From contig JAGBHO010000047.1 of the NCBI GenBank assembly GCA_017935485.1, positions 99,578 through 163,577 of the forward strand: a stretch of DNA of 64,000 nt, written 5' to 3'. A program made the translations under genes and the position numbers. Each line of letters opens with the position of its first letter. The first letter of the stretch is position 1. This DNA comes from Alphaproteobacteria bacterium (GTDB taxonomy: Bacteria > Pseudomonadota > Alphaproteobacteria > RF32 > CAG-239). The notes beneath the pieces are model-generated. The model was not told the DNA's origin. It saw nothing but the letters and a program-made list of their open reading frames with translations, and did not search any database. This document shows, piece by piece, positions 50,943-64,000 of the stretch.

Positions 50943-51093
50943 ATAAAGAAACAGGCAATGACCGGTACGAAAAGAATTTTTATTAACCATTCTGGGCACG
51001 CTATGTGTCATAGAAAAGAAAGAACAACGTGGCAGCTTTGGCACGGCGTTGACAGTCGACCGGGTAAAGCACGTTTGCTTTGGGAGGAAGCCG

Positions 51094-52308
51094 ATGAAAA
51101 ACATTAACAGAAATATGCTACACATGAAACTAAACTCTGCGGTATCAGTCTTTGCTGTTGCCGCCGCTTTCTCGGTGCTCCTCCCGCCTTCTAACGCTCT
51201 TGCAGGTGTCTGCTTCCTGCCCGACTGTGCTGAAAGCGGCATTTTAGAGGGTACTCCCGAGATGGACATCAACTCGGATTCCAAATTTTGTGAAGATAGT
51301 GGCTATATCTACTATGCTTCCGGAAAGTGCCCACAGTACTATGCCGTCGTCGGTACATGTAACCGAGACGACCATTATCTTAAATGTGATGCCAAAACCT
51401 GGTGTAAACAAAACGGATATAACACGACTTCTTGTTCCATTCCGCAATATGTAAACGAAGTCTGTCCGAGTTACGGTTCTTTGTATAAAGGCTGTAAAAC
51501 CGATAATGACCGCGCATGTAAGGAAACCGGATATACCAAGACTTGTCCGTCCGGTCAGAAACTTAAAAAAAACTCCGGCCGCTGTTCTTATGATAATTCT
51601 TACGGGACTTGCTGTACCCCGTCCGGATGTCCGGCTTATACTTCGCTGTCTTCTTCATCCTATGGAACAAACGGTACCGACGGCTGTGAATATTCCTGTT
51701 ATTACACCTGCAACATGAACTGCCCGTCAGGCACGTCAACGTCAAACCCCGGAGGTTGTGGCGGCTCAACCCGTAACGGATGTAATACAAAGACTTGTTA
51801 TTATCCTTATGTCAGCTGTTGTTCGGAAACCTGCCCGTCTTCTCATCCGTACAGCAATTGTGATTACGGTTATACCAGTGTGACTGAAAATGAGTGCGGC
51901 ACGAAAAAATGTTATGCCTGCCGCCCCGAACCTGAGCCCGTTGTAAAAAAATACTGCTCCGGAAATATGATGTATGAAGACTATAACTATGGCGGAAGTT
52001 TTATTGGCGTAATCGTGGACGGATTAATCGTCAGAAAGGATGTCAGATATCTTGCTCTCGGGACGTGTAAATCAAGCTGCTATAACTCAACCGTAGGAAA
52101 CAGATCTTGGCGAATTCCCAACTATTCAGAGTTGAAAAAAATGAGCTGCGCAATTTCGGCATTGGGAGGAGCGATAGACGATACTTATTGGTATACAGCA
52201 GCCAGTATTACCGGAATGTGGCTCTTTTCAGATTATTCAATAAGTGACCCTGAAAATCCAATGTATAAAGATCAGTCAAATTATTGTGCTTGTGTGGCTG
52301 ATGTATAA
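51094..52308 (+). CDS. secreted cysteine-rich protein with a DUF1566-like C-terminal region
   Basis: ATG 51094 follows GGGAGGAAG. Signal peptide (AVSVFAVAAAFSVLLPPSNALA). About 36 Cys by hand count, with a recurring C-x3-GY motif (FCEDSGY, WCKQNGY, ACKETGY). The C-terminus (WRIPNYSELKKM...TYWYTAAS...YCACVADV) resembles the remembered DUF1566/Lcl C-terminal pattern. Confidence 0.7.
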   Translation: MKNINRNMLHMKLNSAVSVFAVAAAFSVLLPPSNALAGVCFLPDCAESGILEGTPEMDINSDSKFCEDSGYIYYASGKCPQYYAVVGTCNRDDHYLKCDAKTWCKQNGYNTTSCSIPQYVNEVCPSYGSLYKGCKTDNDRACKETGYTKTCPSGQKLKKNSGRCSYDNSYGTCCTPSGCPAYTSLSSSSYGTNGTDGCEYSCYYTCNMNCPSGTSTSNPGGCGGSTRNGCNTKTCYYPYVSCCSETCPSSHPYSNCDYGYTSVTENECGTKKCYACRPEPEPVVKKYCSGNMMYEDYNYGGSFIGVIVDGLIVRKDVRYLALGTCKSSCYNSTVGNRSWRIPNYSELKKMSCAISALGGAIDDTYWYTAASITGMWLFSDYSISDPENPMYKDQSNYCACVADV

Positions 52309-55387: not shown

Positions 55388-57268
55388 ATGATTGGAAAAA
55401 TTAGAAGTATTCAGGACTCCTGGGTGATGAAGCTGATTTTGATTCTTACGGCCCTGAGTTTTATGTCCCTCTTCGGCGTCTCCGGCTATTATGCCACTGC
55501 TGCCAACAACAAGCCGGTGATTAAGGTAGACGATATTGAAATTACCCAAAGCCAGATTATGAACGAGCTGAACAACGAACTTCAAAAAGCCAAGTCTTTG
55601 TTCGGCGAGAATCTGGACGTGAACGAAGATATCCGCAATGCCCTGCTGCAGGGACTTGTTCAAAAAGAGCTTTCCAATGCCATTTTGCAAAAAACGGCTC
55701 AGGACAACAATGTTTATATCAGCGACGAGCTGATTAAGAAAATTATTTCTTCCCAGCCTGAGTTTATGGACGAGAACGGAAAATTCAGCGTTCAGCGGAT
55801 GCGCCGGATTCTGGCCTCGGTCGGAATGAGCGAGCAGGAATATATTCAGTCGCTGCGCCGTGATATTGAAAAAATCCACCTTGTTTACAATATGGTAGAC
55901 GGCGTTACCGTGCCCGAGTTTATGGCTGATTATCAATACAAGCTCGATAATCAGAAAAAGGTTTTCAAATTTATCAATATTGATCCGGAACAAATGAAAA
56001 TCGACCGTAAAATTTCACAGGATGAAATTGAGCAATATTACAACGATTTTGCCGCCCAGTTTATTGAACCGGAGAATCGGGACGTTTCTTTTATCAGCAT
56101 TTCCAGTGCCGATGCTGCCGGAAAGGTTTTGATTTCCGATGAAGACGTCAAAGCTTATTATGACGAAAACATCAAGCAGTTTGAAGTTCCGGAAAGCAGA
56201 AACATTCTGCAAATGGTCTTTTCAAACAAAGATGACGCAGACAAAGCTTATGCCCAATTGAAAAACGGTGCGGATTTTTATGCCGTTGCCAAGAAAGAGG
56301 CTAATCAGGACAAAGCCGCCACGGAGCTTGGTTTTGTGGAAAAAGACATGCTTATCGGCAATATGGGCGACGTGATGTTCAGCCTGAAAAAAGGCGAGAT
56401 TTCCGAACCGGAAGAATCCGAATACGGATGGCATATTATGAAAGTGACTGACATCCGCCCGATGCAGAAGACATCTTGGGAAAAAGCCAAGGCTAAAATT
56501 GTCGAGGTTTTGCGCCGCGAGCAGTCTGACGAAGCTGCCGGCGACCTGATTGCCAAAATTGAAGACGAAGCCGGCGCCGGAAAATCTTTGGCCGAAATAG
56601 CAAAAGGCCTGAACGTACCGCTCTTGAAAGTTGAGGGTTTGCAGGAAGACGGCAAGGCCGAATCAATGCCGAAAAGTTTTGAGAAGCTTGTGGCTTCGCC
56701 TGATTTTATCGACGCGGCATTTTCTTATAATCAGGATGAAACCAGCCAGGCGGTTGAGACTGATGACGGCTTTGTTTTTGTTAATGTAGACAAGGTTACG
56801 GAACCGCGCCAGAAAGCCATGGACGAAGTTGTGCCCGAGATTGAAAAGATTTGGGCAGGCAACGAAAAGAATGCCATTGCGCAGGAAGTTGTCAATGATG
56901 TGCTTCATGACGTGGAAAACGGCGACAAGATTGAAGACGTGGCCAGACGTTTCGGACTGAAGCTTCAGACGACGGCTCCGTTAAAGAAATCTGACACTTT
57001 TGACGGTTTCTCCGCCCTGCAAATGCAGGAACTGTTCAGAGAGAATATCGGAACGCCGAAAGTCATCGGCGATGACATGCGTCAGGTGATTGTGGTACCG
57101 GCAAAGGTTATTAACAGTTCGGACAAGCTGACAGAAAGCGAGAAAAAAGACATTTTGCGCAAGGCACAATTTGAAACCTCGCAGGAAATGGCTCAGCAGC
57201 TGATTAATGATTACGGTACAAATTACCGGATAAAGATTAAATATAAGGCCATCGGCATTATAGACTAA
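55388..57268 (+). CDS. ppiD: PpiD-like periplasmic chaperone / peptidylprolyl isomerase (SurA N-terminal domain plus parvulin domain)
   Basis: N-terminal TM anchor, SurA_N-like region, and a parvulin-like segment (ELGFVEKDMLIGNMGDVMFSLKKGEISEPEESEYGWHIMKV). 626 aa. Confidence 0.78.
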   Translation: MIGKIRSIQDSWVMKLILILTALSFMSLFGVSGYYATAANNKPVIKVDDIEITQSQIMNELNNELQKAKSLFGENLDVNEDIRNALLQGLVQKELSNAILQKTAQDNNVYISDELIKKIISSQPEFMDENGKFSVQRMRRILASVGMSEQEYIQSLRRDIEKIHLVYNMVDGVTVPEFMADYQYKLDNQKKVFKFINIDPEQMKIDRKISQDEIEQYYNDFAAQFIEPENRDVSFISISSADAAGKVLISDEDVKAYYDENIKQFEVPESRNILQMVFSNKDDADKAYAQLKNGADFYAVAKKEANQDKAATELGFVEKDMLIGNMGDVMFSLKKGEISEPEESEYGWHIMKVTDIRPMQKTSWEKAKAKIVEVLRREQSDEAAGDLIAKIEDEAGAGKSLAEIAKGLNVPLLKVEGLQEDGKAESMPKSFEKLVASPDFIDAAFSYNQDETSQAVETDDGFVFVNVDKVTEPRQKAMDEVVPEIEKIWAGNEKNAIAQEVVNDVLHDVENGDKIEDVARRFGLKLQTTAPLKKSDTFDGFSALQMQELFRENIGTPKVIGDDMRQVIVVPAKVINSSDKLTESEKKDILRKAQFETSQEMAQQLINDYGTNYRIKIKYKAIGIID

Positions 57269-57276
57269 CTCCGGAT

Positions 57277-57308
57277 AAAGCCCTGCTCCGTGCGGGGCTT
57301 TATTTTTT
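57277..57308 (+). terminator. rho-independent terminator after ppiD
   Basis: Stem AAAGCCC / GGGCTTT followed by T6. Confidence 0.7.
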
Positions 57309-57365
57309 GCAAAAAAGGCTTGCCAAATAAAATTATTTGGTTATGGTATTGATGTTTGATTGAAT

Positions 57366-57442
57366 CGGGGTATGGCTCAGCCTGGTAGAGCGCTTGCTTT
57401 GGGAGCAAGATGTCGTGGGTTCGAATCCCGCTGCCCCGACCA
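57366..57442 (+). tRNA. tRNA-Pro (anticodon UGG)
   Basis: Hand-folded. Acceptor CGGGGTA/TGCCCCG, D arm GCTC-AGCCTGGTA-GAGC, anticodon arm CTTGC-TTTGGGA-GCAAG, T arm GTGGG-TTCGAAT-CCCGC, encoded CCA. Confidence 0.95.
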
Positions 57443-57444
57443 CT

Positions 57445-57476
57445 AAAAAAGGGTGCACGAAGTGTGCCCTTTTTTG
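57445..57476 (+). terminator. rho-independent terminator after tRNA-Pro
   Basis: 8-bp stem GGGTGCAC / GTGTGCCC (two G:U pairs) with a GAA loop, followed by T6. Confidence 0.6.
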
Positions 57477-57599
57477 TGGCTTCGGGAAGCTGATGAGAAA
57501 CCACGAGAAAGTGGGTTCGACTACCAGCGAAAGGCGGATGAAAAGACGCCGGTGAACGAAGCGAATGAGCGCCTGTGCAACTCAAGCGGAGCGCAGAGT

Positions 57600-57618
57600 A
57601 ATCCCGCTGCCCCGACCA
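57600..57618 (+). repeat. 19-nt direct repeat of the tRNA-Pro 3' end (att-like)
   Basis: AATCCCGCTGCCCCGACCA at 57600-57618 is identical to 57424-57442. A second partial T-arm copy, GTGGGTTCGA, lies at 57511-57520. Confidence 0.8.
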
Positions 57619-57719
57619 GCCGCGCGGCGGCAGCGTTCAGTTTGGTTTGCGCCGCAGAAAATCCGACATTTATATAATCTTTTTTTTAGTTCATTTCAGA
57701 AAGCTGTTCAGGCGGACTG

Positions 57720-58385
57720 TTGTTTTTTATTGCTTGTTTTATTTATTCGTTATATCTTATTTTATCTTTATTCAGAAAGGGCAGAATTTTGCAGGGGTAT
57801 AATTTAAGCCGCAACAAGAGTTTACGGCTTCCGAAGATTATAGAGAACGAAGCCGGTGTTCTTAATTCCACGGATGATTTGTTTGCAACACGCCAGGCAT
57901 CGGCTCTGGCAGCAGACAAGAAATTTCCGAAAAAGGCCGTTGACGGAGAAGAAAACGACTATGACGCCGAGTTGGAGAGAGTTTTGAAACTGCCTGAAAA
58001 CGCAAGCGAGCTGGTTGTGATTACCAAGGCGAAAAAACTCGGCGCTTATACGATTGCGATAACGGCTAAGTCGCCGGCAAAATTCCGCGGCGTATTTGTC
58101 AGCCGAATGCAGAATTTTTGTCTTGACGCCGTGCAAAATATGCTGAATGCCAATTTTATCCGCGCGGAAGACGAGAAAAGCAAAAAACAACGGGAAAAGT
58201 TTCAGGCAGATGCAATTATCTGTTTGAAAATGCTGGCATATATTGCCATGGTGGCAGAAAATGCCGGATGCATTCTGAAAAGGCAATACAAACAGATTGC
58301 ATTGCAGGCCGGTGAAACAATAAATCTGGCTTTGGCCTGGAAAAAGAGCGATGATGAAAAATGGAGGAATAAGAAAGAGATTTAA
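57720..58385 (+). CDS. avd: DGR accessory variability determinant (Avd-like four-helix-bundle protein), start uncertain
   Basis: The C-terminal about 125 aa (VITKAKKLGAYTIAITAKSPAKFRGVFVSRMQNFCLDAVQNMLNANFIR...KQREKFQADAIICLKMLAYIAMVAENAGCILKRQYKQIALQAGETINLALAWKKSD) fit the remembered Avd pattern (KFPKKYRFTL...LD...AN...Q..A...L..L..L...A.....IS.KQY......E..KLL.GW.KSD). The ORF has no in-frame ATG. Candidate starts are TTG 57972 and GTG 58017. Confidence 0.7.
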   Translation: MFFIACFIYSLYLILSLFRKGRILQGYNLSRNKSLRLPKIIENEAGVLNSTDDLFATRQASALAADKKFPKKAVDGEENDYDAELERVLKLPENASELVVITKAKKLGAYTIAITAKSPAKFRGVFVSRMQNFCLDAVQNMLNANFIRAEDEKSKKQREKFQADAIICLKMLAYIAMVAENAGCILKRQYKQIALQAGETINLALAWKKSDDEKWRNKKEI

Positions 58386-58426
58386 AACCGAAAGGTTTTG
58401 AATGAGGGAAGACTTGTAAATGCCTT

Positions 58427-58538
58427 ATTTGGTCGGCGTCCGCTAATAATAACGGGAATGTTCGCACCGTGAATAATGACGGAAACAAGAACTATAATAA
58501 CCCCAATAAACGAAAGGACGCCGTTCGGCCCGATTTGC
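58427..58538 (+). repeat. DGR template repeat (TR), non-coding
   Basis: 112-nt A-rich repeat homologous to 60068-60181. In the target's reading frame it is dominated by AAY codons (IWSASANNNGNVRTVNNDGNKNYNNPNKRKDAVRPDL). Confidence 0.88.
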
Positions 58539-58797
58539 TTTTGAAGGGAAACACAAAAATTGCGTCAGGCAAAGCCGCAAGTTTCCGGAAAACAAGCCTG
58601 TTTACGGTTTTTATGCAAGAACCGTCCGTGCTGAAAGCAAAGGAAGTTTTCTCTTTTCCGACCGCTGCGGGGGAATATACCATGCGGAGGAAGAATTAAA
58701 AACAGCAAATGTTTTATGAAATACCACATATGTTGACGCAGTTTTGCTTTAATATATTACCGGGTATTTCTTTTTTTGTCCGGAGATAAGACAACGC

Positions 58798-59865
58798 ATG
58801 AATCTAAACAAGATATTTTCATTTGAAAATCTGCTGGAAGCCCACAAACTGTGCCGAAGAAGCAAGCAGCACAAACGCGGCGCCATTATGTTTGAGATTG
58901 AACTCGGCCGCAACATTGTCAAACTGACAGAAGAGCTGGCAAATAAAAAATACAAACTGGGAAAATACAGAAAGTTTACCATTTTTGATCCCAAGAAACG
59001 TCTGATTGAAGCCCTGCCCTACAAAGACAGGGTCGTTCTGATGTGTTTTTGCCGGTATGCGCTTGAGCCGCGGCTGGACTGCCGGCTGATTTTTGACAAT
59101 GCCGCGTCAAGAAAAGGCAAAGGTCCGGAATTTGCCATTGAACGCCTTTGCTGCTTTATCCGCAAACTTTATTGTCAGAAGCCTAATGAAGATATCTATT
59201 TTTTGAAATGCGACATAGCGAAATACTTTCAAAACATCAATCATACGATATTGTTGGAAAAACTGCGGCGATGCGGCTTTTCTGACGACGAGATGTGGTT
59301 TATGGAACAAGTTGTCCGCTCGCATGGCGAATCCGGCGTACCGCTTGGAAATCAGACAAGCCAGTGGTTTGCCCTGCTCTATCTGGATGAGATTGACCGT
59401 CTGATAAAAGAACGGTTGCGTGCTCCGTTTTATATCCGTTACATGGATGATTTTGTTCTGTTAAGCGAAGACAAGGCCTTTTTGCAGCGTTGCCGGAATG
59501 AAATCGGCCAGACCTGCCGTGAGAGTCTGAAATTACAGCTGAACAACAAAACGCAAATCGGACGGCTGAAAGACGGACTGGATTTTCTTGGATATAATTT
59601 TAAGCTTACGGCTACCGGAAAGATTCTTAAAAGCCTGCGCGCCTCGGCCCGCCGCCGGCAACGGCATTATATTAAGATGATTGCCCATTATTATTTGCAG
59701 GACGTGCTTGACGATGAGTATCTTAATGTCCGTTTTAATGCGTTTAAAGCACATATGAAAGGGACTTCGGACTGGAAATTTGTACGTGACCGGTTAAACA
59801 ACCTGAAAAAGAAGAAGCGGCTTATGAAAAAAGCCGAAGATAAAAAATTCTTGCCCGTTTGCTGA
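58798..59865 (+). CDS. DGR-type reverse transcriptase
   Basis: 355 aa. RT motifs include the DGR-typical LGNQTSQWFALLYL (I/LGxxxSQ) and the catalytic YIRYMDDFVL. GGAGA lies upstream of the ATG. Positioned between TR and VR. Confidence 0.9.
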   Translation: MNLNKIFSFENLLEAHKLCRRSKQHKRGAIMFEIELGRNIVKLTEELANKKYKLGKYRKFTIFDPKKRLIEALPYKDRVVLMCFCRYALEPRLDCRLIFDNAASRKGKGPEFAIERLCCFIRKLYCQKPNEDIYFLKCDIAKYFQNINHTILLEKLRRCGFSDDEMWFMEQVVRSHGESGVPLGNQTSQWFALLYLDEIDRLIKERLRAPFYIRYMDDFVLLSEDKAFLQRCRNEIGQTCRESLKLQLNNKTQIGRLKDGLDFLGYNFKLTATGKILKSLRASARRRQRHYIKMIAHYYLQDVLDDEYLNVRFNAFKAHMKGTSDWKFVRDRLNNLKKKKRLMKKAEDKKFLPVC

Positions 59866-59905
59866 AAGTGTAGTATTATTAGTGGTAACTAATGGAGGAA
59901 CTCTA

Positions 59906-61881
59906 ATGAATACAACATTATTGACAGAAGATCAAATCTGGGGAAATCAGGCTCTGGATGTTATGAAGAAGTATGGAACCAGAACGGCATTGACCGATTT
60001 GGCCATTGTATTGGGAGGTTTAATGGGACGTTCTACCACAACCTCTGAGGGTGAACGTTCCGGTTACATTTGGTCGGCGTCCGCTAAGTATTTGCGGGAG
60101 TGTTCGCACCGTGGGTCTTGACGGCTACAAGGGGCTGTCTTTACCCCTATGAACGCTGGGACGCCGTTCGGCCCGCTTTGCCTCCATCCGAAACATCTAA
60201 AATCCGTCCGAACGCAGTGAGGACGCTGAGATTGCCCGAAGGGCAATCGCTCGAAATTTGCGAATTCGGGGCCTATCCCCAAGATATTGTTTCGAAAAAA
60301 ATTTCGAAAAATCTGGAAAATTCTTACCAAAAAAGAAGTCTTAAAACAACCGGAAATTCCTATACTTTCGACAATGCCGGCCTGACCGATTACTCTGCTC
60401 CTTTTCAACCTAAAACATATCAGGAATACGAGGATTCGTCTTCCGGAAAAAGATATGTCCGCGTTGAAGGCAAGCCCGCCGATGAGGATTCGATTCTTTC
60501 CGACGGGACGCTTGTTCAGAACGGAGAGGCTTATTGGCTGGAGGTCAAGCCGATTGAATGGCTGAAAGATCCGAGCGGCGTCTGGGTGGCGAAAAAAGCC
60601 CTTTTCTCCGGTATACAATTTGATTCTAACAGCAACTATGACGGCAATTTCTCTCAAACTGACATGAAGCAGTATCTGGACCGCTATTTCTCAAAGGAAA
60701 TGCAGGCATCCCGCGATTATTCCGCAAGCCGCAGCCGCAATGCCGACGTTTCCGAAGAAAAAAGCTTTATGCCCAAACCACCCTCGGCCAGGCAGAAGAA
60801 ATACGGTATTCAGGTTGTGGACGAACCGATGACGGTTAAAGACCAGATTGACTTTTATGTGCAGAACGGCATGTCTTTTATGCTGCACGGGCCTTCCGGC
60901 GTCGGAAAGACCGCAAGGGTGGAAGCCATTGATCCTGATCTGACTGCCGTACCTTTATGGAACGGCGTTCTGCCTGAAGACGTGGTCGGAAAGGTTCGCT
61001 ATCCGGACGGGAAAACCGGTCTGCCAGACGAGAACAAGTCCGGCGGGGAATGGATCGCACCGGATTGGTATGTGGAATTGTGCAAAAAATGCGAAGCCGA
61101 ACCTGACAAGAACCATGTTTTGTTTATTGACGAGGTGACTAACGCCCGCCCGACAACGCAAAGTTTGATTTTTCATATTACGTTGAAAAAATCCATCAGT
61201 CCCAGTAAAGGCAAGCTGCCTTCCAATGCCGTGGTCGTATTGGCAGGAAACAGCAAAGAAGAATCCGGTGCGGCGTATAATATGCCGGAACCGTTATTCC
61301 GCCGGATGTGCGGGCATATTTATCTGGAAGCAAATGTGCCGGAATGGCTGGAATGGGCCAGCGAAAAGAGTCGGAAGCACCCCGAAGATCCGGAACGTCT
61401 GAACATTCACCCGCTGGTGTCTTCTTTTGTCGGAACTTACGGGCATCAGGTTTTCTATTCTTCTTATGATGAGGAAAACCCGCAGCAATGGGCAATGGAT
61501 CCGCGCGGATGGGAACAGGTTTCGGACATTATTTATGACAACAAAGGCATTATCCGGCGCGAATTGCTGGAAAGCAAAATGGGTAAGGAACTGGCAGCCA
61601 ATCTGCTGGCTTATGCAAAAAATCCGCCGCTTTCACTGGAAGAAGTAATTAACGGCGAATACTCGGAACGTGACATTCCGTCCGGAAACGATGCCCGTTT
61701 GGCATTGACGCTCAGCCTTCGCCATGTGGACGACCGGCAGGTCGGAAAAGTCAGGGATTTTATTCGGGAAAATCTCGGGCGGGAAAACGAGGCCGTCTTT
61801 GATTCTTTCTGGATTGGCAAAGATGACGAGAGAGCTTTGCTGATTGCCCGTCAGAAACAATTTAGAAACGCAGGGAGGTAA
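59906..61881 (+). CDS. DGR target: N-terminal variable module fused to a MoxR-like AAA+ ATPase; split as assembled into ORFs 59906..60121 and 60100..61881 by two 1-nt insertions in the VR
   Basis: ATG 59906 follows GGAGG. The N-terminus has TDLAIVLGG...GYIWSASA, then the VR, then DAVRPALPP, then FGAYPQ...KPIEWLKD. The ATPase has Walker A GPSGVGKT (60889-60912), Walker B VLFIDEV and VVVLAGN. Removing one G near 60088 and one from the run 60131-60134 restores a single frame colinear with the TR. Confidence 0.75.
60068..60181 (+). repeat. DGR variable repeat (VR)
   Basis: 114 nt aligned by hand to the TR. About 22 substitutions, all at TR adenines. The GC-rich 3' end GACGCCGTTCGGCCCG is identical. 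Two extra G residues relative to the TR. Confidence 0.88.
60230..60248 (+). other. perfect hairpin about 50 nt downstream of the VR, a candidate DGR target-recognition structure
   Basis: GATTGCCC-GAA-GGGCAATC, an 8-bp stem with a 3-nt loop, inside the target coding sequence. Confidence 0.35.
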
Positions 61882-61883
61882 GT

Positions 61884-62264
61884 ATGAACAATAAAAAAAT
61901 GCTGTTTGAGCAGGTATTGGACAACAATCCCCGGCATCCGGTTATTTTGGCCGGAAATACGGAGCTTTCCCTGCCCTCCTGCGTATTTATGCCGGCGGAT
62001 ATTGCCGAGCGGGAATTGTTTATTCCGTCTGACTGGAGCAAGGCGCTTGACTTTGAGGCACAAAGGGGAAAAGCTTATCTTTTGATTGAAGGGTTGGACA
62101 AGTTGGCTCCGGCACAGCAAAGAAAATTTTGTATGCTTTTGAAAAACCGGAGGGCCGGAAATTACAAGCTGCCCGACAATGTCAGCATTGTTATTCCGGT
62201 TGCCGACAAATCAGGCTTGTCTGCAGAGATACTATCTCTTTCATTGTTATGGGACGTTGAATAA
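61884..62264 (+). CDS. small protein resembling a P-loop-less AAA core remnant
   Basis: 126 aa. ATG follows GGGAGG, 2 nt after the target stop. AYLLIEGLDKLAPAQQRKFCMLLKNRR...LPDNVSIVIPV parallels HVLFIDEVTNARPTTQSLIFHITLKK...LPSNAVVVLAGN of the upstream ATPase, but no Walker A is visible. Confidence 0.55.
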   Translation: MNNKKMLFEQVLDNNPRHPVILAGNTELSLPSCVFMPADIAERELFIPSDWSKALDFEAQRGKAYLLIEGLDKLAPAQQRKFCMLLKNRRAGNYKLPDNVSIVIPVADKSGLSAEILSLSLLWDVE

Positions 62265-63808
62265 TGCATGCGGACAATAATGACATTGATTATATCAGGG
62301 AGCGGGTTTTACGGAAATTTCCGCTGCTCGGCGTGACGATGTCCGCACTGAACACCGTTGCCGATGACAACATCGGCACAGCAGCAACGGACGGGCGCAC
62401 CGTTTATTATTCTCCAAAGTTTTTCGCACCGCTTTCCGATGATGAAAAAACTTTTATTTACGCGCATGAGGTTATGCATGTGGCTTTTAACCACATTCTA
62501 CGCAGCAAGGACAAAAAACAGCGTTTGTGGAATATAGCGACGGATGCCGTCATCAACCAGATTCTCAAAAACGAAGAATTGCCGATGATTGACGGCGGCG
62601 TAGATATGGCCGAGGCTTTCAATAAATCTGCTGAAGAAATGTATGAAAGGCTTCTCAAAGAACAGGAAGAAAAAGATAAAGATAAAAATCAACAACAGCA
62701 AAATGAAAGCCATTCCGCACAACAGCCTGAAGGCAACAAGCAGCAAAATGCGCCTCAGCCTCAGGATGATAATCAGCCGTCGCCAAACAGTCCTCAAAAA
62801 CAGGAAAATAATGACGGAGACGGAGAAGAAAGCGAACAGGCCGGGCATGACAATCATAATATTTGGAAAAAAGCCGTAGAAATGGCTGAAAAAGAAAAAC
62901 AGCAACAAGAAGAACAACAGAAAGGAAATTCTCCAACGCAGAAGCAGGAGAAATCCGGACAAAGTATTTTGGACAAGTTGAAAGACTTATTTAAAAAGCC
63001 GGAAAAGCCTGCTGACACAGATAAGTCAGAAAGCCAGACACCACAGACAGGAAGCTCTGACGGCGCTGACAGTCCGCGTTCCAAAGGCAATGAGAGTGTT
63101 TATGAAAAAAGGTTTGGCGAAGATAACCGTCAGGAACGTAAAAAACAAGCAGAACAAATCCGCAAGGCTTTACAGCAACATAAAAACGAAGTCCTTAAAG
63201 CGCAATCCGAAGAATATTCCTTTGGTAACGTCGGAGAGGCCAAGGCTGTCACAGACTGGAAAAAACTTTTAAAAAAGACAATCGAAAAAGAAGAAGACCG
63301 ATGGTCTTACCGTCGTTCCGGTGCCGACAACGATTATATGGCCCGTGTGGAAGAACTGGAAGAAGAGAATTTGTCGGAAACTGAAGTCATGCTGGATGTC
63401 AGCGGCTCGGTTGACGAAGGTATGCTTAAAGAATTTTTACGGCAGCTCAAGCCTATTTTAAAGACTTCAAAACTTAAGGTCGGATGTTTTGATCACCGGA
63501 TTTTTGGTTTTAAGGAGATTAAAAATAATCATGACATTGACAATTTCAGGGTTCCGGGCGGCGGAGGAACGAATATTGATCAGGCCGTACGGGCTTTTTC
63601 CAAGAAAAAAGACGTCAATAAGATTGTTTTTACGGACGGGTATTCCGATGATATGCCGCGGCAGGATCTGAAAAATACAAATGTCATCTGGCTTATTTAT
63701 GACAACAAGAATTTTACTCCGGTTTGCGGAAGAGTGATTTATATCGACCGTGCCAAACTCGGTCAGGATTATATGAGAAATGCCTATTTTGCCAGAGGCG
63801 GCAGATAA
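62264..63808 (+). CDS. zincin metallopeptidase-like domain plus VWA-like domain protein (DUF2201-type MoxR partner) with a long disordered insert
   Basis: TAATG overlap with the upstream ORF. N-terminus has TDGRTVYYSP...FIYAHEVMHVAFNHILR (HExxH at 62465-62479) and WNIATDAVIN. An insert of about 190 aa is rich in Q, E, K, N, P and S. C-terminal VWA has the MIDAS-like MLDVSGSVD (63395-63409) and GGGGTN. Confidence 0.75.
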   Translation: MHADNNDIDYIRERVLRKFPLLGVTMSALNTVADDNIGTAATDGRTVYYSPKFFAPLSDDEKTFIYAHEVMHVAFNHILRSKDKKQRLWNIATDAVINQILKNEELPMIDGGVDMAEAFNKSAEEMYERLLKEQEEKDKDKNQQQQNESHSAQQPEGNKQQNAPQPQDDNQPSPNSPQKQENNDGDGEESEQAGHDNHNIWKKAVEMAEKEKQQQEEQQKGNSPTQKQEKSGQSILDKLKDLFKKPEKPADTDKSESQTPQTGSSDGADSPRSKGNESVYEKRFGEDNRQERKKQAEQIRKALQQHKNEVLKAQSEEYSFGNVGEAKAVTDWKKLLKKTIEKEEDRWSYRRSGADNDYMARVEELEEENLSETEVMLDVSGSVDEGMLKEFLRQLKPILKTSKLKVGCFDHRIFGFKEIKNNHDIDNFRVPGGGGTNIDQAVRAFSKKKDVNKIVFTDGYSDDMPRQDLKNTNVIWLIYDNKNFTPVCGRVIYIDRAKLGQDYMRNAYFARGGR

Positions 63809-63854
63809 ATTTGTACCGACATGAATATTATCTGAAAAAAATTGAAAAAAATTC

Positions 63855-63883
63855 TTGTAAATAAAAAAGAAAAAATGTATATT
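63855..63883 (+). promoter_or_regulatory. sigma70-like promoter candidate upstream of tRNA-Arg
   Basis: TTGTAA, 17-nt spacer, TATATT. This is the same layout as the tRNA-Lys candidate. Confidence 0.3.
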
Positions 63884-63946
63884 CCCTTTTGTAATTATGG
63901 CAAGCGTATTTTTTTAATGTGTTTTTGCCCGTAAATTCTATCTTTT

Positions 63947-64000
63947 GCGCCCTTAGCTCAGCTGGATAGAGCAACAGCCTTCTAAGCTGTGGGTCAGACG
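63947..64000 (+). tRNA. tRNA-Arg (anticodon UCU), truncated by the window edge
   Basis: Acceptor GCGCCCT, D arm GCTC-AGCTGGATA-GAGC, anticodon arm ACAGC-CTTCTAA-GCTGT. The T arm and 3' end lie outside the window. Confidence 0.85.

What the first reader, a model, noticed from the sequence alone, without database searches (positions are those of the whole stretch)
59906..63808. Unusual DGR target: a cytoplasmic variable module fused to a MoxR-like AAA+ ATPase, co-operonic with a metallopeptidase-VWA protein
Characterised DGR targets mostly carry the VR at the extreme C-terminus of C-type-lectin-fold, usually surface or phage-tail ligand-binding proteins. Here the VR covers roughly codons 55-92 of a frame-corrected protein of about 657 codons with no signal peptide or TM helix. 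The motifs flanking the VR are TDLA...G...W-S-A-S and then VRPAL, followed by FGAYPQ...IEW. They look like the small WxxS...VRPA-type binding modules I remember from DUF1566/DUF6273-like proteins. The rest of the protein is a MoxR/AAA_5-like ATPase (GPSGVGKT, LFIDEV, VLAGN). The next two ORFs are translationally coupled (stop/start within 3 nt at 61879-61886, TAATG at 62262-62266). The first is a P-loop-less AAA-like remnant. The second is a DUF2201-type protein with an HEVMH zincin motif and a VWA MIDAS motif. MoxR-VWA pairs are a known functional unit. Having a DGR diversify the recognition end of one suggests a programmable intracellular sensor coupled to an ATPase/VWA/protease effector. 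It could be a conflict or defence system, or a retargetable remodelling machine. I know of no characterised example with this layout.
Basis: inference. Interest (0 to 1): 0.9.

Follow-up and report, generated by a model that had tools for sequence, protein, structure and literature searches.

The report
Self-mutating sensor fused to ATPase motor
A gut alphaproteobacterium carries a complete diversity-generating retroelement that rewrites a small binding domain sitting on the front of a MoxR-type ATPase, which is co-transcribed with a zinc-protease/VWA partner; this is a previously undescribed layout of an already published idea (hypermutated sensors wired to ATPase machines), and in this particular copy the gene is broken by the mutagenesis itself.

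Summary
Window 57720-63808 is one cassette: Avd, TR (58427-58538), a DGR reverse transcriptase, a target gene with its VR at codons 55-92, a 126-aa ORF, and a DUF2201_N/DUF2201 zincin-VWA protein. Of 37 TR adenines, 22 differ in the VR. None of the 75 other bases differ. The VR also carries two 1-nt insertions, so the target is frameshifted here. In-frame 650-657-aa orthologues are common.

The cassette recurs with cis Avd-TR-RT in 15 of 68 species-representative loci, all gut Alphaproteobacteria. Near-identical backbones carry different VR peptides, so diversification is active. The ATPase resembles CbbQ/NorQ (MoxR clade). The VR domain folds confidently but has no Foldseek match and only weak DUF6273 similarity.

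These precedents are published:
- DGR-diversified sensors in MoxR-vWA conflict systems
- AAA-fused DGR targets
- N-terminal DUF6273 VRs ("tentaclins")
- MoxR plus peptidase-vWA pairs in phages

No paper found combines them this way.

My best reading is a cytoplasmic, DGR-retargetable recognition domain on a MoxR hexamer that hands ligands to, or activates, the protease-VWA partner. A conflict role is plausible but rests on analogy. This is a new variant of a known kind. Interest 0.6.

The parts
57720..58385 (+). Avd-like accessory gene. The mechanical ORF is 221 aa. The Avd-homologous part is aa 85-218. The true start is probably downstream of the hydrophobic first residues.
   Evidence: PHROG phrog_3206 'Avd protein of DGR' E 2e-13. 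Weak bAvd and DivGenRetAVD hits. Syntenic orthologues lie upstream of the RT in 15 loci.
58427..58538 (+). Template repeat (TR), 112 nt with 37 adenines. It reads IWSASANNNGNVRTVNNDGNKNYNNPNKRKDAVRPDL in the target's frame.
   Evidence: Weaker similarity to the target continues downstream to about 58660.
58798..59865 (+). DGR reverse transcriptase, 355 aa. It contains LGNQTSQ (59344-59364), which I recall as the DGR-type GxxxSQ motif, and YMDD (59440-59451).
   Evidence: RVT_1 E 2e-18. PHROG phrog_1423 E 1e-92. Motif coordinates. The nearest phage RTs are from gut phages, including nd12 and FP_Brigit, at about 35% identity.
59906..61881 (+). Target gene: N-terminal variable domain, disordered linker, MoxR-like AAA+ module and helical C-terminal region. 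It is frameshifted in this window. Frame 2 runs from 59906 to the TGA at 60119-60121. Frame 1 continues to 61881.
   Evidence: In-frame orthologues of 650-657 aa exist, for example P0001 at 96% identity.
60068..60181 (+). Variable repeat (VR), codons 55-92. It has two 1-nt insertions relative to the TR, near 60088 and at 60131-60134.
   Evidence: 22 of 37 TR adenines changed and 0 of 75 other bases. Against P0001 and L005 the VR is 48-52% identical, versus 97.9% outside it.
59906..60705 (+). VR-bearing N-terminal domain, aa 1-266, mostly beta strands. In the model the VR spans strands 55-60, 66-69 and 75-78 and the loops between them.
   Evidence: AF2 model: pLDDT 95.4, pTM 0.93. No Foldseek match at E below 0.1 in PDB or BFVD. 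No Pfam hit. The family has 2736 representative clusters.
60796..61881 (+). MoxR-like AAA+ ATPase module plus helical C-terminal region. Walker A is at 60889-60912, Walker B at 61120-61137, sensor-1 N at 61237-61251 and the RR pair at 61291-61308.
   Evidence: Foldseek hits CbbQ and NorQ at E 8e-9 to 1e-6. AAA_5 E 1e-3, below Pfam's cut-off. The profile hits MoxR-family structure 2r44 at E 3e-4. PHROG phrog_1297 'ATPase' E 5e-36. G331, G333, K334, D408, E409 and N448 are invariant in 55 sequences.
61884..62264 (+). ORF2, 126 aa. It is a conserved small partner of unknown fold, and its start lies 2 nt after the target's stop.
   Evidence: Orthologues lie between the target and ORF3 in about 40 loci. 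No hit in any family library. Weak similarity to the AAA Walker-B/sensor-1 region.
62264..63808 (+). ORF3, 514 aa: zincin-like metallopeptidase (HEVMH at 62465-62479), a low-complexity acidic/Q-rich linker, and a VWA-like domain (MIDAS DVSGS at 63395-63409). Its start overlaps ORF2's stop (TAATG).
   Evidence: DUF2201_N E 1e-29 and DUF2201 E 1e-12. Both motifs present in 47 of 47 homologues. PHROG phrog_1314 E 7e-68.

Best explanation
**Shown**
- A complete, active DGR (Avd, TR, RT) rewrites about 20 codons of a roughly 265-residue N-terminal domain.
- That domain is fused through a disordered linker to a MoxR-clade AAA+ ATPase.
- The ATPase gene is followed, with tightly abutting or overlapping start and stop codons, by a small conserved protein and by a zincin-metallopeptidase/VWA protein with intact HExxH and MIDAS motifs.
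- None of the three proteins has a predicted TM segment.

**Inferred mechanism**
- The ATPase forms a hexameric ring, as CbbQ, NorQ and RavA do.
- Its six variable domains act as a retargetable ligand-capture crown.
- The VWA domain of the partner docks on the ring, as NorD does on NorQ and CbbO on CbbQ.
- ATP-driven remodelling then does one of two things. It presents the captured protein to the zincin protease, or it switches the protease on once a ligand is bound.
- Because the specificity is re-drawn at random by the DGR, the ligands are probably changeable non-self molecules such as phage or plasmid proteins. That would make this a conflict system, analogous in logic to McrBC (N-terminal specificity domain, AAA+ motor, partner effector) and to the published DGR/MoxR/vWA ternary systems.

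**Null alleles**
- DGR mutagenesis also generates frequent null alleles by frameshift or stop. The window's copy is one of them.
- A later retrohoming event could restore it.
For: **DGR anatomy and A-specific mutagenesis:**

**Conservation**
- The same Avd-TR-RT-target-ORF2-ORF3 order occurs in 15 of 68 species-representative loci, down to about 50% target identity.
- All 15 have an A-biased TR/VR pair at the same N-terminal site.
- The cassette was also seen in L074 and L096-L098.

**Active diversification**
- Cluster members with 98-100% identical backbones carry different VR peptides: P0001, P0269, P0270, P0273-P0275, P0280 and P0281.
- VR entropy is 2.75 bits, versus 0.8-1.7 elsewhere except the disordered linker at 2.46.

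**ATPase**
- Foldseek's top hits are CbbQ and the NorQ/NorQ-NorD complexes.
- The catalytic residues are invariant.

**Partner**
- Pfam hits are above cut-off, and HExxH and DxSxS are conserved in 47 of 47 homologues.

**Localisation:** no TM segment.

**Variable domain**
- The model is confident.
- There is weak DUF6273 similarity, and its VR aligns with the VRs of phage DUF6273 DGR targets.
- Those phage targets are described as C-lec-like with a hypermutated beta-hairpin (PMC10743442).

**Precedent for the logic:** PMC7159879 and PMC10907252.
Against: - No experiment or defence-island context supports a conflict role.
- PADLOC finds nothing for the three effector proteins.
- In the loci whose neighbours I read (window, L001-L004, L074), the flanking genes are ordinary chromosomal genes rather than recognisable defence genes.
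- The ATPase/zincin-VWA pair has many phage homologues (455 phage records). A virion-assembly chaperone role has been proposed for that pair (PMC7824862).
- The window's target is frameshifted. Truncated gene calls are common among near-identical cluster members (5 of 13 and 10 of 14 listed members). This could mean relaxed selection.
- Most of the 68 loci lack a cis DGR.
- Hexamer formation, VWA docking and proteolysis are all inferred from relatives, not tested.
- The variable domain has no structural match to any known ligand-binding fold.
Confidence: 0.5

Rival explanations
1. It is a domesticated or still mobile-element-borne phage module. The MoxR plus peptidase-vWA pair is a virion or particle assembly and processing chaperone, as proposed for jumbo phages. 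The DGR-variable domain adapts that machine, or its cargo, to changing structural or receptor partners. It would not be a host defence system.
For: - The AAA+ part hits phrog_1297 (E 5e-36) and ORF3 hits phrog_1314 (E 7e-68).
- ORF3 homologues occur in 455 phage records, including N4-like phages with a nearby AAA gene.
- PMC7824862 proposes an assembly role for this pair.
- The nearest phage RTs are from gut phages whose DGRs target DUF6273 domains (PMC10743442).
- A serine recombinase abuts the cassette in L096-L098.
- tRNA genes flank it in the window.
Against: - No phage structural genes lie next to the cassette in the window, L001 or L074.
- IMG/VR viral contigs hold only distant homologues (22-35% identity) of the AAA part. 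None matched over the VR-bearing part of the domain, and the earliest match begins at residue 218.
- The N-domain has no tblastn match in 50,697 phage records.
Confidence: 0.15
2. It is a housekeeping MoxR-VWA maturation or remodelling chaperone, like NorQD, CbbQO or RavA-ViaA. Its substrate-adaptor domain happens to be tuned by a DGR to self ligands, for regulatory or metabolic adaptation to the gut.
For: - Characterised MoxR-VWA pairs are maturation or remodelling factors, and the structural best hits are CbbQ and NorQ.
- The loci whose neighbours I read have chromosomal housekeeping flanks.
- The N-domain family is large and often stand-alone, for example next to a NUDIX gene and without any DGR.
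- Cyanobacterial DGRs have been discussed as tuning regulatory pathways (cited in PMC10907252).
Against: - A fixed cellular substrate does not need about 1e20 possible binding-site variants.
- The partner carries a conserved zincin protease, which NorD and CbbO are not known to have (from memory; not checked here).
- The distribution is patchy, the flanks differ between the loci inspected (window, L001-L004, L074), and null alleles are frequent. None of this suits an essential maturation factor.
Confidence: 0.12
3. In this genome the locus is simply decaying. The target is a pseudogene, and the DGR signal is a historical footprint with no present function.
For: - There are two frameshifting insertions in the VR.
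- P0279, a 587-aa Logan gene call, starts inside the same out-of-frame VR peptide (TATRGCLYPYERWDAVRPAL). The same broken allele was therefore seen in an independent assembly.
- Many truncated calls occur in both clusters.
Against: - Everything else is intact: the RT, the Avd, the TR, the 3' end of the VR that matches the TR, all ATPase motifs, ORF2 and ORF3.
- The damage is confined to the one segment that the DGR can overwrite.
- Sister assemblies at 96-100% backbone identity are in frame with other VRs.
- Frameshifting indels are a known by-product of DGRs (PMC5758913).
Confidence: 0.1
4. The two extra bases are assembly or consensus artefacts of a heterogeneous VR population, and the real gene is in frame.
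For: - The source is evidently a metagenome-assembled gut alphaproteobacterium, about 95% nucleotide identity to MAG MGBC133411.
- VRs are heterogeneous in populations.
Against: - In-frame variants all have the same length, so mixing them should not add bases.
- The same out-of-frame peptide appears in a separate Logan assembly (P0279).
- Other loci show different indels (+2 in L018, -1 in L030, -1 in L098) and outright stop codons (L096, L097).
Confidence: 0.1

Closest known systems
DGR-associated vWA-MoxR 'VMAP' ternary conflict systems (Kaur et al. 2020, PMC7159879; Thiohalocapsa DGR loci 4, 5, 7, 8 and 9 in Dore et al. 2024, PMC10907252)
   Same: A DGR diversifies a ligand-binding domain that belongs to an operon with a MoxR-type AAA+ ATPase, a vWA domain and a peptidase. 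The targets are mostly predicted to be cytoplasmic. The proposed logic is sensor, then ATPase transducer, then effector.
   Different: - In those systems the VR lies in a C-terminal CLec/FGS domain, usually fused to the vWA protein or to a separate target, and the MoxR is a separate gene. A third VMAP protein carries the trypsin, caspase or other effector.
- Here the VR domain is N-terminal on the MoxR itself.
- The vWA is fused to a zincin (DUF2201_N).
- The third protein is a 126-aa ORF with no detectable domain.
- No CLec match is found.
- The hosts are gut Alphaproteobacteria rather than multicellular cyanobacteria or Chromatiales.
AAA/Midasin-type ATPase DGR targets of CPR bacteria (Paul et al. 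2017 as summarised in PMC10907252; UVR4 class in Wu et al. 2018, PMC5758913)
   Same: The DGR target protein itself contains an AAA+ (MoxR/midasin-related) ATPase domain.
   Different: [quoted passage not shown] They have different RT lineages and no reported DUF2201 partner. I did not examine their sequences.
Tentaclins and other DUF6273 DGR targets of gut phages (PMC10743442, PMC11792537)
   Same: [quoted passage not shown]
- The VR signature is similar: W-[WS]-x-[RS] ... V ... G ... [GV]-[LV]-R-P-A.
- The VRs align with each other.
- The nearest phage RTs belong to these phages.
   Different: - Tentaclins continue with Ig-like domains and are virion or adhesin proteins. Here the continuation is an AAA+ ATPase.
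- The window protein itself does not hit PF19789.
- The order of the two motif blocks appears swapped relative to DUF6273, but this is not statistically supported.
NorQ-NorD and CbbQ-CbbO (MoxR AAA+ with VWA partner)
   Same: They are the best structural matches of the ATPase module. The partner has a VWA domain with a MIDAS motif. The genes are adjacent.
   Different: Those systems have fixed substrates (NOR, Rubisco). As far as I recall, their ATPases have no N-terminal variable domain and their VWA proteins have no protease domain; I did not check this here. No DGR is involved.
MoxR plus metallopeptidase-vWA pair of jumbo and N4-like phages (PMC7824862; phrog_1297 and phrog_1314)
   Same: The same two-protein core is present. 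ORF3 and the ATPase hit the phage families at E 7e-68 and 5e-36.
   Different: The viral homologues detected matched only the AAA part and none carried the VR-bearing part of the domain; I did not look for a DGR at those loci. The proposed role there is virion assembly.
McrBC
   Same: The architecture has the same logic: an N-terminal specificity domain on an AAA+ motor plus a partner effector enzyme. McrB is a lower-ranking structural hit (E 1e-5).
   Different: McrB binds modified DNA and McrC is a nuclease. The recognition domain is not hypermutated. This is an analogy only.

Membership tests
Diversity-generating retroelement (DGR) | TR/VR pair whose differences fall on TR adenines | tested here: met
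   22 of 37 adenines changed and 0 of 75 other bases. There are also two 1-nt insertions in the VR.
Diversity-generating retroelement (DGR) | Reverse transcriptase of the DGR type next to the TR | tested here: met
   RVT_1 E 2e-18. phrog_1423 E 1e-92. LGNQTSQ and YMDD motifs are present. That GxxxSQ is DGR-specific is from memory.
Diversity-generating retroelement (DGR) | Accessory Avd protein | tested here: met
   phrog_3206 'Avd protein of DGR' E 2e-13. The Pfam bAvd and NCBIfam hits are only weak and below cut-off.
Diversity-generating retroelement (DGR) | Evidence of ongoing diversification in populations | tested here: met
   Eight or more different VR peptides sit on 98-100% identical backbones. 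The VR is 48-52% identical versus 97.9% outside it.
Diversity-generating retroelement (DGR) | IMH-type 3' boundary and a downstream hairpin at the VR | tested here: inconclusive
   A GC-rich block identical in TR and VR (GACGCCGTTCGGCCCG) is followed by divergence. A perfect 7-bp-stem hairpin lies at 60231-60247, but the fold of the region as a whole is not unusual (z = -0.47).
MoxR-clade AAA+ ATPase (Pfam AAA_5; CbbQ/NorQ) | Passes the family's sequence model | tested here: not met
   AAA_5 scores 19.6 bits against a cut-off of 22, E 1e-3. Some homologues do carry PF07728 or PF07726 in the precomputed tables.
MoxR-clade AAA+ ATPase (Pfam AAA_5; CbbQ/NorQ) | Structural similarity closest to MoxR-clade members | tested here: met
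   Foldseek: CbbQ 6l1q at E 8e-9. NorQ entries at E 2e-8 to 1e-6 with TM-score (target) 0.55-0.68. Other AAA+ clades score lower. The sequence profile hits MoxR-family 2r44 at E 3e-4.
MoxR-clade AAA+ ATPase (Pfam AAA_5; CbbQ/NorQ) | Intact Walker A, Walker B, sensor 1 and arginine finger | tested here: met
   G331, G333, K334, D408, E409 and N448 are invariant, and R465/R466 are at least 90% conserved, in 55 sequences. The helix-2 insert that defines the clade was not examined.
DUF2201_N / DUF2201 (zincin-like peptidase plus VWA-like) | Passes both Pfam models; HExxH and MIDAS DxSxS present | tested here: met
   104.3 bits against a cut-off of 23.2, and 48.7 against 26.4. Motifs present in 47 of 47 homologues.
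VMAP ternary conflict system (Kaur et al. 2020) | A VMAP protein as third component, and a vWA protein carrying the FGS/CLec effector | tested here: not met
   The third gene is a 126-aa ORF with no hit in Pfam, NCBIfam, PADLOC or PHROGs. The vWA protein carries a zincin domain, not FGS. No VMAP model was available, so absence of a VMAP domain is judged from size and architecture only.
C-type-lectin-fold DGR variable proteins (Mtd, TvpA, FGE-sulfatase/DUF1566 types) | VR embedded in a CLec fold detectable by structure or profile | tested here: not met
DUF6273 (PF19789) / tentaclins | Passes PF19789; VR at the C-terminal end of the domain; Ig-like domains follow | tested here: not met
   - The window protein and 27 orthologues do not hit PF19789, even after permuting the sequence.
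- 5 of 103 family members, including 2 of 61 stand-alone members, hit weakly (best E 2e-7 and 2e-4).
- VR-on-VR hhalign with nd4 targets gives E 0.004-0.012.
- No Ig domains follow.
- A distant relationship is likely, but this protein is not a family member.
Known anti-phage defence systems (PADLOC-DB 2.0) | Any component matches a defence-system model | tested here: not met
   Only the RT matches generic RT and DRT models. The target, ORF2 and ORF3 have no significant hit.

The most novel reading that the evidence does not exclude
The cassette is a self-contained, roughly 6-kb, cytoplasmic 'programmable AAA+ protease/sensor'. A DGR re-draws the substrate-recognition crown of a MoxR hexamer. 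That hexamer feeds or activates a zincin-VWA partner, giving bacteria an adaptive-immunity-like way to recognise and destroy, or respond to, changing intracellular invader proteins. The VR scaffold would be a new, possibly circularly permuted, relative of the DUF6273/C-lec domain. TR-encoded stop codons and frequent indels would make expression of the system stochastically ON or OFF.
Probability: 0.25. Interest if true: 0.85.

Novelty: new variant of a known kind. Interest (0 to 1): 0.6.

Why it matters
**Simplest wiring so far.** If the reading is right, this is the most compact known wiring of a DGR to an intracellular effector. The hypermutated binding domain sits directly on the ATP-driven motor, and only two further genes (a small ORF and a protease-VWA protein) follow in the operon. 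That makes the sensor-transducer-effector hypothesis, raised for the much larger VMAP systems, directly testable in E. coli with five or six genes.

**Wider host range.** It extends DGR-diversified cytoplasmic sensors from multicellular cyanobacteria and Chromatiales, and from CPR bacteria, to apparently ordinary gut Alphaproteobacteria of humans, mice and ruminants.

**A second scaffold.** It points to a VR scaffold that structure search does not recognise as C-type lectin.

**Practical use.** A small retargetable recognition module on an unfoldase-like ATPase with a protease partner could serve as a natural template for evolvable targeted protein degradation.

**Annotation lesson.** Frameshifted or nonsense VRs make gene callers drop the variable N-terminus, for example the 549-aa 'hypothetical protein' calls. 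Surveys that rely on called proteins will then miss such targets.

Tried and rejected
1. **C-type-lectin or Ig fold for the VR domain.** Foldseek of a pLDDT-95 model against PDB and BFVD gave nothing below E 0.1. Pfam gave nothing.
2. **Circular permutation of DUF6273.** Permuted sequences still do not hit PF19789. hhalign of the second half against phage nd4 targets is not significant, E 0.2-0.5. Only the VR-bearing half aligns. I keep this as an idea, not a result.
3. **ORF2 as an inactive AAA domain.** hhalign gives E 0.005-0.01 at probability 4-7%. The PDB profile search gave only a weak AIM2 pyrin-domain hit, E 0.019. Unresolved. Both structure-prediction jobs went on the target, so none was left for ORF2.
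4. **Known defence system.** PADLOC was negative.
5. **Phage-borne copy of the fusion.** No N-domain match in 50,697 phage records. IMG/VR holds only distant AAA-only relatives.
6. **A second VR or target in the window.** None found.
7. **Stand-alone N-domain proteins as trans targets.** P0139's VR-equivalent segment does not match any TR in an A-biased way, 19 versus 25 mismatches.
8. **Literature.** No paper in the held library combines DGR with DUF2201. The DGR plus MoxR/vWA papers describe other architectures.
9. **RNA families.** Only tRNAs were found in 57000-64000.
10. **P0272 context.** The look-up of P0272, the NCBI 549-aa call that may correspond to this window, was not on record.

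Full report
**What is in the sequence**

The region is one co-oriented gene set on the + strand:
- An Avd-like ORF, 57720-58385.
- An untranslated template repeat (TR), 58427-58538.
- A reverse transcriptase (RT), 58798-59865.
- The target gene, 59906-61881, beginning 40 nt after the RT behind a GGAGG ribosome-binding site.
- A 126-aa ORF2, 61884-62264.
- A 514-aa ORF3, 62264-63808.

The target's TAA (61879-61881) lies 2 nt before ORF2's ATG. ORF2's TAA shares its last A with ORF3's ATG, giving TAATG at 62262-66.

**The DGR is real**

The TR aligns with a variable repeat (VR) at 60068-60181. 22 of the 37 TR adenines differ in the VR, and none of the 75 other bases differ. In the target's frame the TR reads IWSASANNNGNVRTVNNDGNKNYNNPNKRKDAVRPDL, the Asn-rich pattern typical of DGR templates. 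It has 20 variable codons and about 1e20 possible peptides.

- The RT hits RVT_1 and the PHROG reverse-transcriptase family at E 1e-92.
- It contains LGNQTSQ and YMDD.
- The upstream ORF matches the PHROG family 'Avd protein of DGR' at E 2e-13.
- Only one VR exists in the 64-kb window.

**The target is broken in this copy**

Relative to the TR, the VR has two extra single bases, near 60088 and at 60131-34. These move the reading frame from 2 to 1 and expose a TGA at 60119-21. Removing them gives a 657-aa protein.

That protein is not a fiction. The homology search returned 678 relatives, many of 640-690 aa and colinear over the whole length. They include P0001, which is 657 aa and 96% identical.

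P0279, a 587-aa Logan gene call, begins inside the same out-of-frame VR peptide as the window. The frameshifted allele has therefore been assembled independently.

VR disruption is common in this family:
- L018: +2.
- L030: -1.
- L098: -1.
- L096 and L097: stop codons.

Among the cluster members listed, and leaving aside the three obvious fragments, 5 of 13 in the window's cluster and 10 of 14 in the sister cluster are N-terminally truncated gene calls. Frameshifting indels are a documented DGR by-product (PMC5758913).

**Conservation and activity**

A scan of one genome per species found 68 loci. The closer relatives are mostly labelled as uncultured gut Alphaproteobacteria (human, mouse, ruminant, termite). 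The more distant ones are Clostridia.

- The target-ORF2-ORF3 trio is widely conserved.
- Fifteen loci also carry Avd and RT upstream: L005-L012, L014, L017, L018, L021, L030, L032 and L037.
- All fifteen have an A-biased TR/VR pair at the same N-terminal position.
- The same cassette was seen in L074 and L096-L098.
- The neighbouring genes differ between the loci I inspected (window, L001-L004, L074) and are ordinary chromosomal genes.

Three RT-less loci (L001, L013, L002) have VRs that fit a relative's TR with A-biased mismatches of 15:5, 21:7 and 22:12. Cross-species controls gave about 12:18. This suggests a DGR acting in trans or lost recently. Other RT-less loci show no such trace.

Within 90%-identity clusters, backbones that are 98-100% identical carry unrelated VR peptides. 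Examples are NRCGDVRTVNDSGGKHYDDPSKRRD, SSDGFVRTVCNDGRKHFTFPIKRGG and DYDGDVRTVGRDGSKSGYDPAERED. Against P0001 and L005 the VR is 48-52% identical, versus 97.9% outside it. Diversification is therefore ongoing in nature.

**The ATPase**

AlphaFold2 on a 55-sequence alignment gives three parts:
- A confident N-terminal domain, residues 1-266, pLDDT about 95.
- A disordered linker, residues 270-291.
- An alpha/beta AAA+ core followed by a helical region.

Foldseek against PDB ranks CbbQ (6l1q, E 8e-9) and many NorQ and NorQ-NorD chains first (E 2e-8 to 1e-6, TM 0.55-0.68 on the target). McrB, RuvB, Clp and dynein rank lower. The sequence profile finds the MoxR-family structure 2r44 at E 3e-4.

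Pfam AAA_5 is just below its cut-off, 19.6 against 22 bits. Walker A (GPSGVGKT), Walker B (LFIDEV) and the sensor-1 Asn are invariant, and an RR pair is at least 90% conserved, in 55 sequences. 'MoxR-like' is therefore supported structurally, while formal Pfam membership is not met.

**The partners**

ORF3 passes DUF2201_N and DUF2201 comfortably. HExxH and the MIDAS DxSxS are present in all 47 homologues examined, separated by a low-complexity acidic/Q-rich linker.

The ATPase and ORF3 have phage counterparts: phrog_1297 at E 5e-36 and phrog_1314 at E 7e-68. ORF3 has homologues in 455 phage records, including N4-like phages. Iyer et al. described a MoxR plus metallopeptidase-vWA pair in jumbo phages and proposed a virion-assembly role (PMC7824862).

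ORF2 is conserved, with the motif L-x-I-x-G-L-D...EQ-x-KF...LLKDRR-x-G-x-x-KLP-x-x-VQI. It matches no library. Its similarity to the Walker-B/sensor-1 stretch of the ATPase is in the right place but weak, E 0.005-0.01 at probability 4-7%.

**The variable domain**

Modelled alone, it is very confident: pLDDT 95.4, pTM 0.93. The VR covers strands 55-60, 66-69 and 75-78 and their loops.

It has no Foldseek match below E 0.1 in PDB or in BFVD, and no Pfam hit. It therefore cannot be filed as a C-type-lectin DGR scaffold on this evidence.

A profile search of 1.84 billion representatives shows a large family: 2736 clusters at E up to 1e-3 and 863 at up to 1e-30. Many members are stand-alone proteins of 265-400 aa. 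A few of the 103 scanned are fused to ankyrin (3 members), MORN, pentapeptide or AAA modules (1 each). One stand-alone member sits beside a NUDIX gene with no DGR nearby.

Five of 103 members, including two of 61 stand-alone members, weakly hit DUF6273, best E 2e-7.

DUF6273 is a published DGR target domain of gut phages:
- In Faecalibacterium prophages the VR maps to the C-terminus of DUF6273 (PMC11792537).

I fetched phage nd4. hhalign places this family's VR segment on the VRs of both nd4 targets: W-W-W-L-S...V-Y-T-D-G...G-L-R-P-A against W-S-A-S...V-R-T-V...G...A-V-R-P-A, at E 0.004-0.012. The remaining half does not align significantly, and permuted sequences do not hit PF19789.

The closest phage RTs, at about 35% identity, include nd12 and FP_Brigit. 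A distant, possibly rearranged, relationship to DUF6273 is likely. Membership is not shown.

**How it most likely works**

Shown:
- A DGR rewrites an N-terminal domain.
- That domain is tethered by a flexible linker to an apparently active MoxR-type ATPase.
- A conserved protease-VWA protein and a small ORF follow with tightly abutting or overlapping start and stop codons.
- No TM segment is predicted.

Inferred from CbbQ/CbbO, NorQ/NorD and RavA:
- The ATPase forms a hexamer and the VWA domain docks on it.
- The six variable domains capture a ligand.
- ATP-driven remodelling either presents that ligand to the zincin or activates the zincin.

Random re-drawing of specificity makes most sense for changeable non-self ligands. 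I therefore favour a conflict role, in line with the models of Kaur et al. and Dore et al. for DGR/MoxR/vWA systems (PMC7159879, PMC10907252). This step is analogy only. PADLOC is negative and the neighbourhoods I read are not obviously defence islands. The main rival is a phage-derived assembly or processing chaperone.

**Novelty**

These are published:
- DGR-diversified CLec/FGS domains on vWA proteins of MoxR-vWA-VMAP systems.
- Variations with MoxR adjacent to targets, and the statement that CPR DGR targets are commonly CLec fused to an AAA ATPase.
- Midasin-type AAA in UVR4 targets, rare N-terminal VRs, and frameshifting indels.
- N-terminal DUF6273 VRs.
- MoxR plus peptidase-vWA in phages.

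I could not find the following: the VR domain on the MoxR protein itself, at its N-terminus, with a DUF2201 partner, as a conserved cassette of gut Alphaproteobacteria. I rate it a new variant of a known kind, with interest 0.6. It is still notable for its compactness, its unrecognised VR scaffold, and the high frequency of DGR-made null alleles.

Noticed in passing
L007/L096 TR (L096:1159-1270), L008, L009 and L030 TRs: In four lineages the TR carries an in-frame TAA at a position that must be mutated for the VR to be readable (…KNY*NPNK…, …QNN*NPNK…, …PTE*SNV…, …TVN*NGN…). In full-length alleles of the L007/L096 lineage that codon reads W or F. L096 has TGA there. A faithful copy of the TR would therefore switch the target off. 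The window's own TR has no stop, but it has three Lys codons (AAG, AAA, AAG) that can become stops.
   Followed up: partly
Protein clusters of P0001 and P0002; L096-L098: Many near-identical cluster members are N-terminally truncated gene calls (540-592 aa) because the VR holds a frameshift or stop. The NCBI record MBP3346757.1 (549 aa, 'hypothetical protein') has the window's backbone. Gene-call-based DGR surveys would lose the VR-bearing N-terminus in such cases.
   Followed up: partly
window 57366-57442, 57600-57618 and 63947-64000: tRNA-Pro(TGG) lies just upstream of the cassette. The last 19 nt of its 3' end (AATCCCGCTGCCCCGACCA) are repeated exactly 176 nt downstream (copies at 57424-57442 and 57600-57618). 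A second tRNA begins at 63947 and is cut by the window end. The cassette thus sits between tRNA genes, with a possible integration scar.
   Followed up: no
L096-L098, positions 1-283: A serine recombinase (Resolvase) gene lies immediately upstream of the Avd gene of the sister cassette in three independent samples. This hints that the cassette can move as a unit.
   Followed up: no
window 61884-62264 (ORF2) and alignment A6: The best PDB sequence hit of the ORF2 family profile is the pyrin (death-fold) domain of AIM2, through the shared motif LL-x-x-GLD-x-I-x-x-E-x-x-x-F (E 0.019). It is probably chance. Death-like adaptor domains have, however, been predicted in bacterial MoxR-vWA conflict systems.
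   Followed up: no
L052/L057, L054/L058/L063/L071, L053/L060/L061/L070/L072, L040/L045/L069: Several Clostridia/Eubacteriales MAGs carry 2-5 paralogues of the N-domain-AAA protein, some without ORF2/ORF3 and none with a nearby RT. This may be diversification by paralogy rather than by DGR.
   Followed up: no
L075:6001-6810 (P0139): The VR-bearing domain is a large family of its own (2736 representative clusters). Many members are stand-alone cytoplasmic-looking proteins of about 270 aa. One sits in a conserved pair with a NUDIX gene among ribosomal and tRNA-synthetase genes.
   Followed up: partly
window 58424-58660: Beyond the TR proper, the TR-to-RT spacer still translates into a degenerate copy of target residues 54-124 (39% identity over 79 aa). 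This looks like a relic of the duplication that created the TR.
   Followed up: no
window 60231-60247: A perfect 7-bp-stem hairpin (ATTGCCC-GAA-GGGCAAT) lies about 50 nt downstream of the VR inside the coding sequence. It may or may not be the DGR target-recognition hairpin. The local fold is not statistically unusual (z = -0.47).
   Followed up: partly
window 51049-52308: A 419-aa Cys-rich protein has a signal-peptide-like N-terminus and internally repeated 45-nt segments (51403-51447 and 51517-51561). Its C-terminus (…SWRIPNYSELKKM…TYWYTAAS…) reminded me of DUF1566-type lectin-like modules. It is not a DGR target of this TR.
   Followed up: no
window 57720-57780: The mechanical Avd ORF begins at a TTG with a strongly hydrophobic stretch (Kyte-Doolittle 2.07). 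Avd homology starts only at residue 85, so the annotated start is probably wrong. Alternatively, this family's Avd has an unusual N-terminal extension, since orthologues align from residues 7-29.
   Followed up: no
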